Made by a program: the position numbers and the translations under genes. Source: a virus. From it: a DNA stretch of 64,000 nucleotides. The DNA is taken from IMG/VR virus record IMGVR_UViG_3300020020_000027, positions 1 to 64,000 of that record. One strand, 5' to 3'. This document shows, piece by piece, positions 1 to 7,579 of this stretch; positions within the stretch are counted from its first letter, which is position 1; every line of letters starts with the position of its first letter. Below the pieces are notes generated by a model that was not told where the DNA came from, made no database searches, and saw nothing but the letters and a program-made list of their open reading frames with translations.

Positions 1-187
1 CCCATTAGTTCGGTTGGCTTGAGGACAAAAAAGAATGGTCGTGCGTGCTTACAAAGCCTCAAGCGATAGAAGGTAAGTCGTATGATCTGTGGGGAGAACC
101 CACGGTATTCACGCCGCGTGAAGCATGAAACAAAGACTTGCCTTCTCCTAAAAGTCCTTTGAGAATTACACAGTGGAGCTGATGAAA

Positions 188-267
188 AGCAGCAGACTGA
201 ATTGGGTATCGGTTATCATTTATTGGAAAATGAAACAATCCCGATCCCTACCTACTTGTTTGCTGCT
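188..267 (+). ncRNA. Y RNA copy 1 (minimal form)
   Basis: Terminal stem AGCAGCAGAC/GTTTGCTGCT, ACTGA and CTTGT motifs, GGTTATC, upper stem GGG-ATCGG/CCGATCCC; Ro60 gene at 4401. Confidence 0.8.
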
Positions 268-270
268 CTT

Positions 271-344
271 GGTGGTTATGGTGTACCGGAAGTGCACGGC
301 GGGATGTGACCCCGCAAGTCTGGGTTCGACTCCCAGTAATCACC
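271..344 (+). tRNA. tRNA-His(GTG)
   Basis: G-1 plus GTGGTTA/TAATCAC acceptor, anticodon arm GCGGG-ATGTGAC-CCCGC, T arm CTGGG-TTCGACT-CCCAG. Confidence 0.9.
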
Positions 345-347
345 CAA

Positions 348-469
348 AATTGTTCAACTGAATTGTGAATTGGTGATCACCACTAGATCGGGTCCTTGGA
401 AGATAGGTAAAGATCTTCGCTTGGCTATGCCAAGTGACCACTCCAATTCCTGTAACTTGTTGGACAATT
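348..469 (+). ncRNA. Y RNA copy 2 (three-way-junction insert)
   Basis: AATTGTTCAAC/GTTGGACAATT stem, ACTGA, GGTGATC, CTTGT; insert GGTC/GACC closing two hairpins. Confidence 0.75.
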
Positions 470-495
470 CATATAGCTTCAAGTAATCCACCAAA

Positions 496-610
496 GTGTT
501 GGACTGAAATGGAATTGATTATCAAGAGTCCGCAAGTATGCAAAAACTTGGCCTTGAAGCTACCCCGCCACAAGGTAGGACAAATCGATACCAGCAATCT
601 TGTTTGACAC
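496..610 (+). ncRNA. Y RNA copy 3 (three-way-junction insert)
   Basis: GTGTTGGAC/GTTTGACAC stem, ACTGA, GATTATC, CTTGT; insert GTCC/GGAC closing CAAGT/ACTTG and CCTTG/CAAGG. Confidence 0.75.
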
Positions 611-619
611 ACAAAACAT

Positions 620-758
620 GGGTAGGTGGTTCGCGGGTGAAATTCCCGACCTGTTTGGTAGTGTCATAGTCTGACGGCACAGGAATGGCACGTGACAGAC
701 AATGGTAAGTCCGTCTAAGCTACTAAAGCAGTGGGTGGTTCGATTCCCCCTATACCCG
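620..758 (+). ncRNA. tRNA-like structured element (acceptor and T arm, long non-canonical body)
   Basis: GGGTA/TACCC ends, GG-TTCGATT-CC T loop, long helix CTGTTTGGTAG/CTACTAAAGCAG, extra CGGG-TGAAATT-CCCG hairpin. Confidence 0.45.
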
Positions 759-761
759 CGC

Positions 762-857
762 TGCTTGACTGAATGAATTCGGTTATCGGTGAAATAGAAG
801 GAAGCTCGATATATTGAGCGTCTATTATAATTCCGAATTTAACTCACTTGTTAGGCA
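762..857 (+). ncRNA. Y RNA copy 4 (hairpin insert)
   Basis: TGCTTGAC/GTTAGGCA stem, ACTGA, GAATTCGG/CCGAATTT upper stem, GGTTATC, CTTGT. Confidence 0.8.
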
Positions 858-883
858 CACAAAGGCCCGCGACCCTCGGGGAC

Positions 884-956
884 AATGCTTGACTGAACGG
901 ATATTGGTTATCACACAGCCAAAGTTAATCCGATATCCACGTGCTTGTTAAGCATT
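884..956 (+). ncRNA. Y RNA copy 5 (minimal form)
   Basis: AATGCTTGAC/GTTAAGCATT stem, ACTGA, GGATATTGG/CCGATATCC upper stem, GGTTATC, CTTGT. Confidence 0.8.
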
Positions 957-971
957 ATTAAATTAAATAAC

Positions 972-1043
972 AATGTTGGACTGACGAGGATTGGTTATCT
1001 CTCTTTAAGATTCCTCCGATCCGTGTTTTACTTGTTCGACATT
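972..1043 (+). ncRNA. Y RNA copy 6 (minimal form)
   Basis: AATGTTGGAC/GTTCGACATT stem, ACTGA, GGATTGG/CCGATCC upper stem, GGTTATC, CTTGT. Confidence 0.8.
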
Positions 1044-1126
1044 TATAAGACTTCTTGCGTTACCTGCATCCCGCAAGGAGAAGGAAGGGTGTTGGGATAG
1101 GAGAAAGACTCCAATGCCCTTCCGAT

Positions 1127-1200
1127 CTGGATATAGCCTAACTTGGTAGGGCACTAGCTTTGGGAGCTAGAGATTACAGGTTCGAATCCTGTTATCCAGA
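1127..1200 (+). tRNA. tRNA-Pro(TGG)
   Basis: CTGGATA/TATCCAG acceptor, CTAGC-TTTGGGA-GCTAG anticodon arm, ACAGG-TTCGAAT-CCTGT T arm. Confidence 0.95.
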
Positions 1201-1380
1201 CGGTATGTCTTTTAATTGTTGTGTAGAGATATTCCTAGCGTTTGCTGCTACAAACACTAAAAGCATGTGTCCAGTAGTTCAATAAGATATTGATTGCTAG
1301 GTCATTCAAATCGATATTGCGAACGAACAGACAGGGCAGGTGAAAAGACCTGGGTAAAGTAGCCTGCCCCCAACTAAGCT

Positions 1381-1598
1381 CCCAATGTGTGATGTTTTCT
1401 CCCGCTCGGGGTAAGTTCCGCTAGGGTCACTACTCATCACACATTGGGGTTAAACCCCCAATACATAGACATTCCAATGCGGGTGCGCCGAACAATTTGG
1501 ATTGGGATACGCTGTGTATTGGGCTAAACGCCCAATGTGTGATGGACTGTTCATTTTTCAGGGTTAGTTCAGCCTACCTTAGACCATTACACATTGGG
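1381..1598 (+). repeat. Three tandem 67-68 nt hairpin units (CCCAAT...ATTGGG) with TAAA linkers
   Basis: Units at 1381-1448, 1457-1523 and 1531-1598; 12-15 bp terminal stems, variable interiors. Confidence 0.8.
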
Positions 1599-1790
1599 TT
1601 AAAAGCTCCTGGCTGTCCGGCTGGAGATCGGGCGGACCTACATGTCTGGTAGGTTAACTCCATGTCTGGTACCGTACATGGCCCAAACGGTACACTACAA
1701 ATGGGAACGTGACATAGGCTTGGGATGTCACACGTATCAGGTGTGTTTAGTGCCTAGTAATAGGTCTTGGGTTTGCCTGATTAAAGTTTT

Positions 1791-1875
1791 GGGGATGTTG
1801 GCGTAATGAGGAGTTGGCACCGAATCCACAGTAATTGTGGTTGCCCTTGCGTAGGTTCGAATCCTACTGTCCCCT
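1791..1875 (+). ncRNA. tRNA-like element (intact acceptor and T arm, no canonical D or anticodon arm)
   Basis: GGGGATG/TGTCCCC acceptor, GTAGG-TTCGAAT-CCTAC T arm; irregular helix ending CCACA-GTAAT-TGTGG. Confidence 0.6.
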
Positions 1876-1876
1876 C

Positions 1877-2016
1877 GATGTTGGACTGAGTTATTATCGG
1901 TTATCATCTAACTACTAATTAGAAGGTCCAGGTTCGAATCCTGGTCGGCCCACGGGGGCCGATGGTGTAATGGATAGCACAAGAACTACTCGATAATAGA
2001 CAACTTGTTCGACATC
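1877..2016 (+). ncRNA. yrlA: YrlA-type Y RNA (copy 7) with circularly permuted tRNA domain
   Basis: GATGTTGGAC/GTTCGACATC stem with ACTGA, GGTTATC and CTTGT; internal order is anticodon-like arm TCTAA-CTACTAA-TTAGA, T arm CCAGG-TTCGAAT-CCTGG, closed acceptor TCGGCCC/GGGCCGA, D arm GTG-TAATGGATAG-CAC. Confidence 0.9.
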
Positions 2017-2032
2017 AGAAAATGGAGTTGTC

Positions 2033-2185
2033 ATGAAAGTTGTATACATTCTAGCGGGAATCTTAACGGTAATAATAGCCAGCGGATTCACCATTTGGAT
2101 TGGATACATATTAGTAAATGGAATGCGAAAAAGAATAGCGCGAATCAATCAAACGCGAAAAGACAAGCAAATACGGAGGTTCTAG
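2033..2185 (+). CDS. Small membrane protein (50 aa)
   Basis: GGAG RBS; MKVVYILAGILTVIIASGFTIWIGYILV TM segment plus basic tail; stop overlaps next GTG; below the ORF-track cutoff. Confidence 0.65.
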   Translation: MKVVYILAGILTVIIASGFTIWIGYILVNGMRKRIARINQTRKDKQIRRF

Positions 2186-3186
2186 TGAAGAACACCCGTC
2201 GCTATGTCGCAATTCTTGCCGGAACTGGCATTGCATTGGGACTTGGCGCGTGTAGTACAACTTCCGAGCCTGATAAGGTTGGGCTGTACTACATGGAGGG
2301 TCCATCCGATGGGTACCAGTTTGGTGAGTGCATTCAGCCAGGCAAAACCGGTTCACCCGAATGGAATAATTCTGTAGTATATTTGCCGACAAGCCTACGC
2401 ACGTGGGTTATCGACGATATGCCAGATCCAACAGACCCACTAAATAAGTCTGTCATTGCTCCTGGTGCTGACTCAGGAAATGTCACGGTAGTTTCGGCAA
2501 AGCCTGAGAAGGACCAGCCATCAGGTGTTCAGGTAAAGATTTCTACTAAGACATCTTTCTACCTCAACACTTTTTGCGATAAGAGTGGTGGCAAGGCAAA
2601 GGAATTCTGGGAGAAAATCGGACGACGATACTTTGCGGATACGGACAAGGGATGGAAGGACATGTTGGAGGCAGAAATGACTCCAATACAGAACACCATT
2701 ATCAAGGACGTGTCCCGCAACTATAGTGCAGATCCATTCATCGCCAATGCAAATGGCGAACAGAATGAAGCACAGAAGACAATATCGGAACGTCTCGCAG
2801 TGGAATTCAACCGGCTTGCTGGAGGACAATTCTTCTGTGGTCCCACATTTAATCGAGCATCGGACACCTGTCCAGCACTTGAAATGCTTATTATCGGCGT
2901 GGAATATGCCGATCGTGGCATTCAGGCAGCAAGAAATGAAAAGCAAAAGGCAGTTGAACTTGCCGCGGCGAAGTTGGCCGAAGCACAGGGTATAGCTGCC
3001 GCCCTGGTGGCAGAAGCACAAGGCAAGCGCGATGCCGCCAACGCTGTGGGCGCACTGTACAACTCGCCTGGATGGGTGGCCTTGCAAAAGCAAATCGAGG
3101 CAGGCAAGGCACTTATCGAAGCCTGCAAGCAGGCCAAGGAATGCCGACTTATTGTTGGCGCCGATGGCACGCTGATAATGCAATAA
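2185..3186 (+). CDS. SPFH/band-7-like lipoprotein
   Basis: GGAGGT RBS before GTG at 2185; lipobox LGAC; C-terminal Ala-rich coiled coil; resembles actinophage band-7 proteins. Confidence 0.7.
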   Translation: MKNTRRYVAILAGTGIALGLGACSTTSEPDKVGLYYMEGPSDGYQFGECIQPGKTGSPEWNNSVVYLPTSLRTWVIDDMPDPTDPLNKSVIAPGADSGNVTVVSAKPEKDQPSGVQVKISTKTSFYLNTFCDKSGGKAKEFWEKIGRRYFADTDKGWKDMLEAEMTPIQNTIIKDVSRNYSADPFIANANGEQNEAQKTISERLAVEFNRLAGGQFFCGPTFNRASDTCPALEMLIIGVEYADRGIQAARNEKQKAVELAAAKLAEAQGIAAALVAEAQGKRDAANAVGALYNSPGWVALQKQIEAGKALIEACKQAKECRLIVGADGTLIMQ

Positions 3187-4400: not shown

Positions 4401-6029
4401 GTGCCTAACTACCTTCACAAGCATCTGACTACGGATACTCCGCAGACGGAACCGGAGAGTCCTCTCCAGGTTGCCAACTCTGCTGGAGGTTTTTCTTTTC
4501 AGGTGAATCCCATCGATCGATTGATGCGCTTCCTTATCCTCGGTTCCGAGGGTGGTACGTATTACATCGGCGAGAAGGATTTGACTAAGCAGAATCTGGA
4601 CAATCTCAAGCACCTTACCGAAACTAATCCTTATACAGTAATTCATAAGGCGCTTTTAGTTTCTGATGAAGGACGAGCGTACCGCAACGATGCCGCCATT
4701 CTTGCCCTCGCTTACGTGATGACGTTTGGTGACGACAAGGCCAAGGCTTATGCTCGCGGTCATGTCAAAGATATTGTGCGTACGTCCTACCATCTTTTCC
4801 AGTTTGAGTCTTTCCTTAAGGCTCTTGCTCCTGGATCAGGCTTGGGAACGTCGAGAAACCGAGCAATCGCCTCTTGGTACGAGGCAAAGACACCCGAAGA
4901 CATCGCTTACCAGGCGGTCAAGTACCGTCAGCGGCTAGGCTGGACGCACGCGGATAGCCTACGCCAGTCTCGGCCACAGTTTTACACTGATTTGTACCAT
5001 GATGTAGCAAAGTGGATTCTTGGCAAGTACACGGGTGATCTCACTCAATTGCCAGACATCATTCGCGACTTTGAGGAAGTACAAAAGGCCGATGATGTCA
5101 CGAATGTTCTTGCTATCATGGAATGGGCCAAGCTTCCTTGGGAGGCTTTGCCTACCAAGTTCCTGAAGAACCCAGAGATTTGGCACAAGCTGTTCTATAC
5201 TGGCCAGCTTAAGGGACAAGCACTGGTGCGAAACATCACTAGGCTGGCTCGAATAAACGCGTTTGATGATCTGGTATTCACCGAGAATTATGCAAATGCA
5301 CTTACCGATGAGAATATGATCAAGCGGACGCGTTTGCATCCACTTAATTTCCTCAACGCATTGGTGGTGCACACTGAAGGTCAGAACCAGCACAAGAAGC
5401 CTGACTGGATGTACTTCAGCCGCAAGATAAAGGATTGGACGCAAAGTCCCATTATTACCGACGCATTGGATGCTGGTGTTCATTTGGCGTTCAAGCACAT
5501 TGAGCCAACCAACAAGCGCACTTTGCTTGCCGTGGATGTTTCTAGCTCAATGTCATCCTCGATCGGTATGGGTCTTGACTTAAGTGCAGCACAAATTTCC
5601 GGGGTAATGGCAGCAGCCATTGCCAAAACCGAGCCATACTACCAAATCATGGGATTCGCAAGCACATTCAAGGATTTGGGTATCTCGGCCGACATGAGTC
5701 TTACCACAGTCATGAACAAGGTACAACAGATGAACTTCGGTTCTACCAACTGTGCTTTGCCAATGACGTGGGCCACGGAGGGTGAGAAGAAATTCGATAC
5801 ATTCGTGGTCCTTACCGACAACGAGACTTATGCCGGATCTGTGCACCCCCATATCGCTTTACAACAGTACCGAAAGAAGTCAGGCATCGACGCTCGACTA
5901 ATCGTCGTTGGTGTTGCCTCAAACGGCTTCACCATTGCCGACCCCAATGATTCTGGCATGCTCGACGTTGTAGGGGCAGATGCCAATTTGCCTAAGCTCA
6001 TTGCTGAGTTTAGCTCAGGCAGGATTTGA
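4401..6029 (+). CDS. rsr: Ro60 (TROVE + vWA) Y-RNA-binding protein
   Basis: NSAGGFSF..RLMRFLILGSEGGTYY, AVKYRQRLGWTHAD, MIDAS DVSSSM, TDNET, FTIADPNDSGMLDVVG. Confidence 0.97.
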   Translation: MPNYLHKHLTTDTPQTEPESPLQVANSAGGFSFQVNPIDRLMRFLILGSEGGTYYIGEKDLTKQNLDNLKHLTETNPYTVIHKALLVSDEGRAYRNDAAILALAYVMTFGDDKAKAYARGHVKDIVRTSYHLFQFESFLKALAPGSGLGTSRNRAIASWYEAKTPEDIAYQAVKYRQRLGWTHADSLRQSRPQFYTDLYHDVAKWILGKYTGDLTQLPDIIRDFEEVQKADDVTNVLAIMEWAKLPWEALPTKFLKNPEIWHKLFYTGQLKGQALVRNITRLARINAFDDLVFTENYANALTDENMIKRTRLHPLNFLNALVVHTEGQNQHKKPDWMYFSRKIKDWTQSPIITDALDAGVHLAFKHIEPTNKRTLLAVDVSSSMSSSIGMGLDLSAAQISGVMAAAIAKTEPYYQIMGFASTFKDLGISADMSLTTVMNKVQQMNFGSTNCALPMTWATEGEKKFDTFVVLTDNETYAGSVHPHIALQQYRKKSGIDARLIVVGVASNGFTIADPNDSGMLDVVGADANLPKLIAEFSSGRI

Positions 6030-7497: not shown

Positions 7498-7578
7498 GCC
7501 TCCGTAGCTCAGTGGAAGAGTCACAGTACACCCCGCAGTAGTGTGCTGTAGACGCAGGTTCGATTCCTGTCGGGGGTA
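7498..7578 (+). tRNA. Atypical tRNA with extended anticodon arm (9-bp stem, 9-nt loop)
   Basis: Normal acceptor GCCTCCG/CGGGGGT, D arm and T arm; anticodon arm ACAGTACAC-CCCGCAGTA-GTGTGCTGT. Confidence 0.75.
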
Positions 7579-7579
7579 C

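What the first reader, a model, noticed from the sequence alone, without database searches (positions are those of the whole stretch)
188..1043. Y RNA scaffold resembles animal Y RNA but has a bulged U
Seen: consensus GAC-U-GA-N8-10-GGUUAUC...CUUG-UU. From memory, human Y1 reads GGUC-C-GA-AGGUAGUGA-GUUAUC...CA-CUUG-ACU, so spacing, GUUAUC and CUUG all match. In all seven copies the bulged C is replaced by U and the adjacent U-A pair is flipped to A-U. Copies 1, 5 and 6 (72-80 nt) lack any tRNA-like domain. Inference: the phage Ro60/Y pair may be orthogonal to a host pair, and tRNA-centred YrlA models would miss these minimal Y RNAs.
Basis: partly seen in the sequence, partly recalled or inferred. 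Interest (0 to 1): 0.7.

Follow-up and report, generated by a model that had tools for sequence, protein, structure and literature searches.

The report
Phage Y RNAs with U bulge
A soil phage carries seven Y RNA genes whose protein-docking helix has a U where almost every known Y RNA has a C, and its Ro60 protein has changed the matching RNA-binding residue, so RNA and protein appear to have switched their recognition code together.

Summary
Seven Y-RNA-like genes lie on the + strand upstream of an intact phage Ro60 gene (4401-6029). Six are at 188-1043 and one at 1877-2016. A covariance model built here finds exactly these seven in the 64 kb window (E 2e-13 to 1e-4; next hit E 1.1).

All seven read GAC-U-GA where other Y RNAs read C-C-GR. 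The likeness to animal Y RNA is real, but most prokaryotic Y RNAs share it, and C-bulge ones more strongly.

New here: the U bulge tracks the protein. Among 264 unique model-supported Y RNAs next to Ro60 genes:
- All 201 beside a Ro60 with the His equivalent to human H187 have a C bulge. H187S abolishes Y RNA binding in animals.
- All 44 with a U bulge sit beside a Ro60 with Arg or Lys there.

The window's Ro60 has R191 at that position and has also lost the W144 equivalent. A quick tree needs five changes of the U state; at least three is a safe reading.

This is best read as a co-evolved switch in Ro60/Y RNA recognition, a new variant of a known system. Orthogonality to a host pair is untested and the host is unknown. 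The A-U "flip" is an ordinary variable pair. No binding or expression data exist.

The parts
188..267 (+). Y1, a minimal Y RNA: 10-bp terminal stem, U bulge, upper helix, short loop
   Evidence: CM R1 62.1 bits, E 2e-13; scanner; ortholog in L005 at 1200-1275 with compensatory stem changes
348..469 (+). Y2, a Y RNA with a two-hairpin inner module and no T or D arm. It reads AAC-U-GA and GGUGAUC
   Evidence: CM R1 27.6 bits, E 1e-4, not in the seed; fold
496..610 (+). Y3, a Y RNA with a branched inner module and no T or D arm. It reads GAUUAUC
   Evidence: CM R1 37.4 bits, E 4e-7, not in the seed
762..857 (+). Y4, a Y RNA with one extended inner hairpin
   Evidence: CM R1 39.5 bits, E 1e-7, not in the seed. 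The element in the corresponding place in L005 (1703-1840) carries full T and D arms instead
884..956 (+). Y5, a minimal Y RNA
   Evidence: CM R1 52.6 bits, E 5e-11
972..1043 (+). Y6, a minimal Y RNA
   Evidence: CM R1 54.4 bits, E 2e-11
1877..2016 (+). Y7, a YrlA-type Y RNA. The same U-bulge stem encloses a tRNA-like module (T arm, stem, D arm in permuted order)
   Evidence: CM R1 36.5 bits, E 6e-7, not in the seed. The inner part is called tRNA by Rfam (35.3 bits) and 'tRNA-Ser(act)' by ARAGORN
4401..6029 (+). Ro60 ortholog, 542 aa, with TROVE and Ro60 vWA domains, intact
   Evidence: Pfam PF05731 at 1.7e-28 and PF25045 at 4.5e-63; aligns end to end with human and Xenopus Ro60 and with D. 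radiodurans Rsr
4812..4868 (+). Ro60 residues 138-156. This remodelled segment reads APGSGLGTSRNR where other Ro60s read (R/G)GWGR.LRR. The W144 equivalent is lost (L148) and the R146 equivalent is T150
4971..4973 (+). Codon of R191, the equivalent of human/Xenopus H187
   Evidence: HMMER alignment to 9nen_A and 1yvp_A, residues counted from K170 and R174; codon position. H187S is cited as a Y-RNA-binding-dead mutant in PMC11277228 and PMC4030889

Best explanation
The stretch is an array of seven Y RNA genes that serve the phage's own Ro60 protein.

Each RNA pairs its two ends into the helix that docks on the outer face of the Ro60 ring. Its variable interior presumably recruits a partner. In six copies the interior is a short loop or a hairpin. 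In Y7 it is a tRNA-like module. Characterised Y RNAs tether Ro60 to exoribonucleases such as PNPase, so the partners here may be host nucleases or tRNA-handling factors (inferred).

The array is probably made as part of a long transcript together with the interspersed tRNAs and cut into units (inferred).

The special feature is at position 9, the single unpaired nucleotide of the docking helix. It is C in animals and in nearly all prokaryotes, and U in all seven copies here. The cognate Ro60 has Arg (R191) in place of the His equivalent to H187. It has also rebuilt the neighbouring segment that normally holds the W144 and R146 equivalents.

The same coupling (U at position 9 with Lys or Arg at 187) recurs in several unrelated Ro60 lineages. 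The RNA and the protein therefore most likely changed together and keep binding through a different contact.

A chemically plausible reading (inferred, not shown) is that His accepts a hydrogen bond from the amino group of C, while Lys or Arg donates one to the carbonyl of U.

Shown: the genes, their structure, the U, the protein substitutions and their association. Inferred: binding, the altered specificity, processing and the partners.
For: - Identity as Y RNAs. CM R1 finds 7 hits in the window, 121 in 81 viral loci, 84 in 80 genome loci and 76 in 80 metagenome loci. All are on the strand of the Ro60 gene. It finds none in 673 kb of unrelated viral DNA that carries the bare motif.
- Structure. 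89% of cells are paired against 68% in shuffles and 34-48% when the partner is slid. 127 double-change cells are seen against 44 in shuffles. RNAalifold finds 7 of 9 lower-stem pairs with compensatory changes.
- Position 8 covaries with its 3' partner (C with G, U with A). Position 9 is therefore the unpaired one.
- Association. Among 264 unique Y RNAs, 201 of 201 beside a His-187 Ro60 (122 loci) have C. All 35 in the window clade (R191 type, 5 loci) have U. All 9 beside a Lys-187 Ro60 in L050, L158, L337 and L350 have U. L366 adds 4 more U copies by regex.
- Independence. A FastTree of 208 Ro60 proteins needs 5 changes of the U label, and starred branches force 5.
- Literature. The bulged C9 is called critical for Ro60 binding and retained in bacteria (PMC4030889, PMC11277228). 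H187S abolishes Y RNA binding (PMC11277228). YrlA has the conserved 5' motif GNCGAA (PMC4201824). Phage phiLo Ro60 binds its Y-like RNAs and host PNPase (PMC12135203).
Against: - No binding, expression or end-mapping data exist. Only DNA runs from soil hold the sequence.
- The structural contact between H187 or W144 and the bulged C could not be checked.
- Lys or Arg at 187 does not always go with U. L051 and L150 (Lys, by regex only) and L042 (Arg, by CM) have C.
- W144 is retained in one U lineage (L337), so only the residue at 187 is a consistent correlate.
- The tree is a quick FastTree with many unresolved forks. The three Arg-144/Lys-187 lineages could be fewer origins than drawn.
- Hits are clustered by locus, so the counts of RNAs overstate the number of independent events.
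Confidence: 0.72

Rival explanations
1. Tolerated drift. Ro60 needs an unpaired pyrimidine but does not read its identity. The C-to-U change is then neutral, and the protein substitutions are unrelated lineage markers.
For: Some Ro60s with Lys, Arg or Ser at 187 still have C-bulge RNAs (L051, L150, L042, L109, L140, L341). Only pyrimidines are seen at this position (244 C, 44 U, no purine).
Against: There is no U among 201 unique Y RNAs beside His-187 proteins in 122 loci. Every U lineage has Lys or Arg at 187. Within each U locus all 2 to 9 paralogous RNAs carry U, which is not expected of a neutral site. Reviews state that mutation of C9 disrupts Ro60 binding (PMC4030889).
Confidence: 0.18
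2. First reader's stronger reading. The switch exists to make the phage Ro60/Y pair orthogonal to a host Ro60/Y pair, so that neither titrates the other during infection.
For: The switch is fixed in a whole phage clade (window, L005, L006, L066, L287). Three further U lineages sit on viral or metagenome contigs. Many soil Actinomycetota, the hosts of the nearest cultured phage relatives, encode Ro60 with C-bulge Y RNAs.
Against: The host is unknown. Most Ro60 phages, including ET08 on M. smegmatis (which has its own Rsr/YrlA according to PMC4201824), keep the C-type pair. The bacterium Desulfonema magnum has a U-type pair as its only Ro60, so the switch also arises without a second pair in the same genome.
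Confidence: 0.3
3. Decay. The Ro60 has lost Y RNA binding (as in H187S) and the U-type RNAs are relics or act without Ro60.
For: H187 is replaced and the W144 equivalent is lost.
Against: The Ro60 reading frame is intact and 63-76% identical across the clade, with K174, Y175, R176 and R178 (equivalents of K170-R174) invariant in the 25 closest relatives. The Y RNA stems keep pairing through compensatory changes between orthologs. The array sizes stay at 7-9.
Confidence: 0.04

Closest known systems
Bacterial and phage YrlA/YrlB Y RNAs (Salmonella, M. smegmatis, mycobacteriophage ET08; Chen et al. 2014, PMC4201824)
   Same: They are encoded next to Ro60 on the same strand. A terminal stem carries the Ro60 site. 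Y7 has the permuted T/D-arm tRNA-like module of YrlA. The minimal copies parallel YrlB. ET08 itself has three such genes upstream of Ro60 (L002 4598-4951).
   Different: The conserved C of GNCGAA is U. The partner protein has Arg in place of the H187 equivalent. There are seven copies, six of them without a tRNA-like module.
Vertebrate Y RNAs (Rfam RF00019) and nematode stem-bulge RNAs (RF01656)
   Same: The architecture is the same: lower stem, one bulged pyrimidine, G-U and A-U pairs, internal loop, upper stem, a loop starting UUAU, and CUUG on the 3' side.
   Different: Rfam models score about 32-33 bits on C-bulge phage Y RNAs (L071) but nothing at E<=10 on the window. The bulge is U, there is no 3' oligo-U tail, and the context is prokaryotic.
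Thermus phage phiLo Ro60 with Yrl1 and Yrl2 (PMC12135203)
   Same: A phage-encoded Ro60 with small Y-like RNAs just upstream. That study shows binding and a complex with host PNPase, which supports the proposed mode of action.
   Different: The phiLo RNAs were picked by a CGAA motif (C-type). Their protein is very divergent (about 17% identity to other Ro60s according to the paper). There are two RNAs, not seven.
Rhodococcus phage Trina and related actinophage Y RNA arrays
   Same: Arrays of about 6-9 Y-like genes are interspersed with tRNAs upstream of Ro60 (L003 2398-5906). Some are annotated 'tRNA-OTHER' in the record.
   Different: Trina reads GAGC-C-GR with CAUG on the 3' side, and its Ro60 keeps W and H.

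Membership tests
Prokaryotic Y RNA (YrlA/YrlB type) | Encoded beside a Ro60/Rsr gene | tested here: met
   The seven genes lie 2.4-4.2 kb upstream of the Ro60 gene at 4401-6029, on the same strand. All 281 CM hits in related loci share the strand of Ro60.
Prokaryotic Y RNA (YrlA/YrlB type) | Long stem formed by pairing of the 5' and 3' ends, conserved in structure | tested here: met
   97% of lower-helix cells are paired, and 7 of 11 pairs show changes on both sides.
Prokaryotic Y RNA (YrlA/YrlB type) | 5' strand motif GNCGAA(N0-1)G (Chen et al. 2014) | tested here: not met
   All seven read (G/A)AC-U-GA, so the conserved C is U. The flanking G, the paired C, GA and the spacing are kept.
Prokaryotic Y RNA (YrlA/YrlB type) | Bound by Ro60 | not testable with these tools
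   This needs EMSA or co-immunoprecipitation. No RNA run holds the sequence.
YrlA subfamily | tRNA-like module with conserved T and D arms | tested here: met
   Met for Y7 only: the Rfam tRNA model scores 35.3 bits at 1883-1952, and the T arm and D arm can be read. Y1-Y6 give no tRNA-model signal at E<=10.
Metazoan Y RNA (Rfam RF00019) | Score at or above the family's gathering threshold (38 bits) | tested here: not met
   There is no hit at E<=10 on window 1-2200. A related C-bulge phage RNA reaches 31.7 bits.
tRNA | Cloverleaf with acceptor stem formed by the RNA's own ends and a 3' acceptor end | tested here: not met
   The ARAGORN and Rfam calls at 1883-1953 use the Y stem 5' strand as the acceptor and show several non-standard pairs. 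The element is embedded in the Y7 stem.
Ro60 / TROVE protein | TROVE HEAT-repeat ring plus vWA domain, and the KY(R/K)QR motif | tested here: met
   K174, Y175, R176 and R178 are invariant in the alignment of the 25 closest relatives.
Ro60 / TROVE protein | His at the position of H187, required for Y RNA binding in animals | tested here: not met
   R191 in the window. The position is Arg throughout its clade and His in the Ro60s of 122 C-bulge loci.

The most novel reading that the evidence does not exclude
Ro60 and Y RNA recognise each other through a simple, evolvable two-part code: nucleotide 9 (C or U) read by residue 187 (His, or Lys/Arg). Nature has flipped this code several times. The result is mutually orthogonal Ro60/Y RNA pairs, which let a phage run its own RNA-decay or RNA-repair particle without cross-talk with a host Ro60 system. 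Such pairs could serve as orthogonal RNA-protein tethers.
Probability: 0.35. Interest if true: 0.78.

Novelty: new variant of a known kind. Interest (0 to 1): 0.64.

Why it matters
The Ro60/Y RNA particle is a classic, deeply conserved ribonucleoprotein and a major human autoantigen. In the reviews read here, its bulged C9 and H187 are described as critical for binding, with C9 said to be retained in bacterial Y RNAs.

Natural lineages in which both changed together give a direct, cheap test of how the pair is read: swap C and U, and swap His and Arg or Lys. They would also show that the interface can be re-coded.

For phage biology, the result points to large, diversified Y RNA arrays as a common feature of tRNA-rich actinophage-like genomes. 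Annotation currently misses them or labels them as odd tRNAs. It also raises the possibility that phages insulate their RNA-quality-control machinery from that of the host.

Tried and rejected
- Rfam scans. The gathering scan of the whole window and the E<=10 scan of 1-2200 found only tRNAs and noise. No Y family fired, not even at the published ET08 YrlA locus.
- Megablast of 1-2100 against phage records gave no match.
The contexts of the closest metagenomic Ro60 relatives and of the informative intermediates (P0016, P0035, P0038) could not be fetched.
- A collection scan for GACTGAA-N5-11-GGTTATC in viral contigs returned only single chance matches. None of the 80 loci listed under ids gave a CM hit. 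It was kept as a negative control.
- Sequencing runs: no RNA holder is listed. Only soil DNA runs hold the stretch.
- Primary papers on the Ro60/Y RNA interface (Green 1998, Stein 2005) and two Wolin reviews are not held. Contacts of H187 and W144 with C9 therefore rest on secondary reviews and on the co-variation found here.
- The promoter and terminator scan found nothing relevant inside the array.
- Rejected: the idea that C is the bulge and U pairs with G. Position 8 covaries with the 3' partner across the family.
- Rejected: the idea that the A-U 'flip' is meaningful. That pair varies freely.
- Checked: Desulfonema magnum could have held two Ro60 paralogs with different codes, but it has one Ro60 gene.

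Full report
**What is there.** The window is 64 kb of a 75-kb virus record. GC content is about 45%, and only soil metagenome DNA runs hold the sequence.

At 4401-6029 (+) lies an intact 542-aa Ro60 ortholog with TROVE and Ro60-vWA domains. Its best cultured relatives are:
- Streptomyces phages, about 49% identity;
- Rhodococcus phage Trina, 44%;
- Bxz1-like mycobacteriophages, 37%.

Upstream on the same strand are seven elements with one scaffold: Y1 188-267, Y2 348-469, Y3 496-610, Y4 762-857, Y5 884-956, Y6 972-1043 and Y7 1877-2016.

Each element has:
- a terminal stem of 8-11 bp that ends in a C-G pair;
- one unpaired U;
- a G-U and an A-U pair;
- an internal loop;
- a second helix of 6-10 bp;
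- a loop that starts UUAUC.

The pattern ACTGA-N6-14-GGTTATC occurs five times against 0.11 expected by chance.

**Are they Y RNAs?** I aligned 32 short elements of this kind from 20 Ro60 loci (A2).
- RNAalifold recovers the terminal stem, with compensatory changes in 7 of 9 pairs.
- For the full two-helix structure, 89% of cells pair. Column shuffles give 68%, and sliding the partner gives 34-48%. Double-change cells number 127 against 44 in shuffles.
- Covariance model R1 finds exactly the seven elements in the window with filters off. E-values run from 2e-13 to 1e-4, and four of the seven were not in the seed. The next hit has E 1.1.
- R1 finds 121, 84 and 76 hits in 81 viral, 80 genome and 80 metagenome loci chosen only for encoding a Ro60 relative. 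Every hit is on the strand of the Ro60 gene.
- R1 finds none in 673 kb of unrelated viral contigs that carry the bare motif by chance.

Position next to Ro60, conserved structure and the known Ro60-site motif place these elements in the prokaryotic Y RNA family of Chen et al. 2014 (PMC4201824).

Y7 encloses a T arm, a stem and a D arm in the permuted order typical of YrlA. ARAGORN and the Rfam tRNA model call this part a tRNA. Y1, Y5 and Y6 have only a short loop. Y2-Y4 carry hairpin modules with no tRNA-model signal.

Minimal Y RNAs beside a YrlA are not peculiar to this phage. ET08 has three Y genes upstream of Ro60 and Trina has about eight.

No sigma-70-like promoter or intrinsic terminator lies inside the array. 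That fits processing from a long transcript together with the interspersed tRNAs, but this is an inference.

**Resemblance to animal Y RNA.** The shared features are spacing, GGUUAUC and C-(U/A)-U-G.

These features are general to prokaryotic Y RNAs. In A2 the invariant columns are the paired C, the G after the bulge, UUA-C, and C-N-U-G on the 3' side.

C-bulge phage Y RNAs in L071 score 31.7 bits with Rfam Y_RNA and 33.2 bits with a nematode stem-bulge family. The window gives no hit at E<=10. The likeness is therefore real, but it is weaker here than elsewhere.

The 'flipped' A-U pair is a position that varies freely (A-U 14, G-C 9, G-U 9).

**The U bulge.** In the pooled CM hits, position 9 is C in 244 and U in 44, never a purine.

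Position 8 covaries with its 3' partner (C with G, U with A). It is therefore paired, position 9 is the unpaired nucleotide, and the N of Chen's GNCGAA is position 8. The U thus replaces the conserved C of that motif.

Reviews call this C (C9 in human Y RNAs) critical for Ro60 binding and say that it is retained in bacterial Y RNAs (PMC4030889, PMC11277228).

The U is fixed in the window's clade:
- window, 7 copies;
- L005 (Ro60 76% identical), 6-7 copies;
- L006 (74%), 9 copies;
- L066 (63%), 8 copies;
- L287 (66%), 5 copies.

The next relatives outside the clade have C.

**Co-variation with the protein.** HMMER alignment to human (9nen_A) and Xenopus (1yvp_A) Ro60 gives these equivalences:

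| Window | Human/Xenopus |
|---|---|
| K174 | K170 |
| R178 | R174 |
| R191 | H187 |
| APGSGLGTSRNR (141-152) | MKCGMWGRALRK |

The second segment means that the W144 equivalent is lost and the R146 equivalent is Thr. H187S is the standard Y-RNA-binding-dead mutant (PMC11277228; H187 is also noted in PMC4030889).

Across 264 unique CM-supported Y RNAs:

| Residue at 187 | Y RNAs | Bulge | Loci |
|---|---|---|---|
| His | 201 | all C | 122 |
| Ser | 5 | all C | 3 |
| Arg (window clade) | 35 | all U | 5 |
| Arg (L042) | 1 | C | 1 |
| Lys | 9 | all U | 4 (L050, L158 = Desulfonema magnum, L337, L350) |
| not read | 13 | all C | 7 |

- L042 is a variant that also reads CC in place of GA.
- L366, sister of L158, adds four U copies by regex.
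- W144 is replaced in four of the five U lineages (Leu or Arg) and kept in L337.
- Lys-187 proteins with C-bulge RNAs exist (L051 and L150, by regex only). A basic residue at 187 therefore looks necessary for U in this sample but is not sufficient.
- A FastTree of 208 Ro60 proteins needs five changes of the U label, and starred branches force five. Given the poor resolution, at least three origins is the safe statement.
- About 36 of the 120 listed metagenomic cluster representatives carry the window-type signature (GLGTSRN with RQ(S/A)RP). The clade is therefore sizeable.

**Reading.** The simplest account is a co-evolved change of the Ro60/Y RNA contact. The unpaired C became U, and the residue that reads it became Arg or Lys.

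A hydrogen-bond swap is chemically plausible but inferred: His would accept from the cytosine amino group, and Lys or Arg would donate to the uridine carbonyl.

Whether the switch serves to insulate the phage particle from a host Ro60 system is open:
- The host is unknown.
- Most Ro60 phages keep the C type.
- Desulfonema magnum has the U type as its only Ro60.

The likely function of the particle follows known systems: Y RNAs tether Ro60 to exoribonucleases, and phiLo Ro60 with its Y-like RNAs binds host PNPase (PMC12135203). The seven different inner modules suggest several partners.

**Verdict.** This is a new variant of a known system, with a clear bench test.

This blocked retrieval of the intermediate Ro60 forms that would test the rule further.

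Noticed in passing
window 612-760: A structured, tRNA- or tmRNA-like element between Y3 and Y4. It is conserved almost base for base in the related contig L005 at 1535-1680. ARAGORN and Rfam do not call it.
   Followed up: no
window 1381-1598: Three long hairpins of similar size whose stems begin CCCAAT and end ATTGGG. They lie between tRNA-Pro and Y7. L005 has one similar hairpin at about 2830-2880.
   Followed up: no
window 1795-1875: A tRNA-like element with acceptor-like ends and a GGTTCGAATCC T arm directly upstream of Y7. ARAGORN does not call it as a tRNA.
   Followed up: no
window 1883-1953: The ARAGORN 'tRNA-Ser(act)' call and the 35-bit Rfam tRNA hit are the tRNA-like module of Y7, not a tRNA gene. 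In the GenBank record of phage Trina some features in its Y-gene region are annotated 'tRNA-OTHER'.
   Followed up: yes
L042 4546-5830; L126 3173-3860; L131 3149-3860: A further Y RNA variant reads GAGC-(C/U)-CC-A in place of C-C-GA-A, still followed by CGGUUAUC. It sits beside divergent Ro60s (Propylenella and a viral contig) that have Arg at 187 and Phe or Trp at 144. This may be a third recognition code.
   Followed up: partly
L038 2950-5780; L056 5021-5690: Y RNAs read GAG-U-C-GA. Position 8 is U, paired with A, and the C bulge is kept. The adjacent Ro60s have Leu at 144 but His at 187. This shows that position 8 is the N of GNCGAA.
   Followed up: partly
L071 5389-5758: Phage Y RNAs that nearly reach the Rfam thresholds of vertebrate Y_RNA (31.7 of 38 bits) and of a nematode stem-bulge RNA family (33.2 of 38 bits). 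The core is deeply conserved between phage and animal Y RNAs.
   Followed up: partly
L005 1703-1840 versus window 762-857: The element in the corresponding place carries a full YrlA-type T/D-arm module in L005 but a plain hairpin in the window. Inner modules therefore appear to be exchanged or lost on a constant Ro60-binding stem.
   Followed up: no
L002 (phage ET08) 4598-4951: Three Y genes lie upstream of Ro60: two minimal ones flank the tRNA-like YrlA. A short annotated CDS (gp219, locus 4797-4970) overlaps two of them.
   Followed up: partly
window 7498-7579: ARAGORN tRNA-Gly(acc) of 82 nt. The Rfam tRNA alignment shows 19 nt where the model has 9 in the anticodon region.
   Followed up: no
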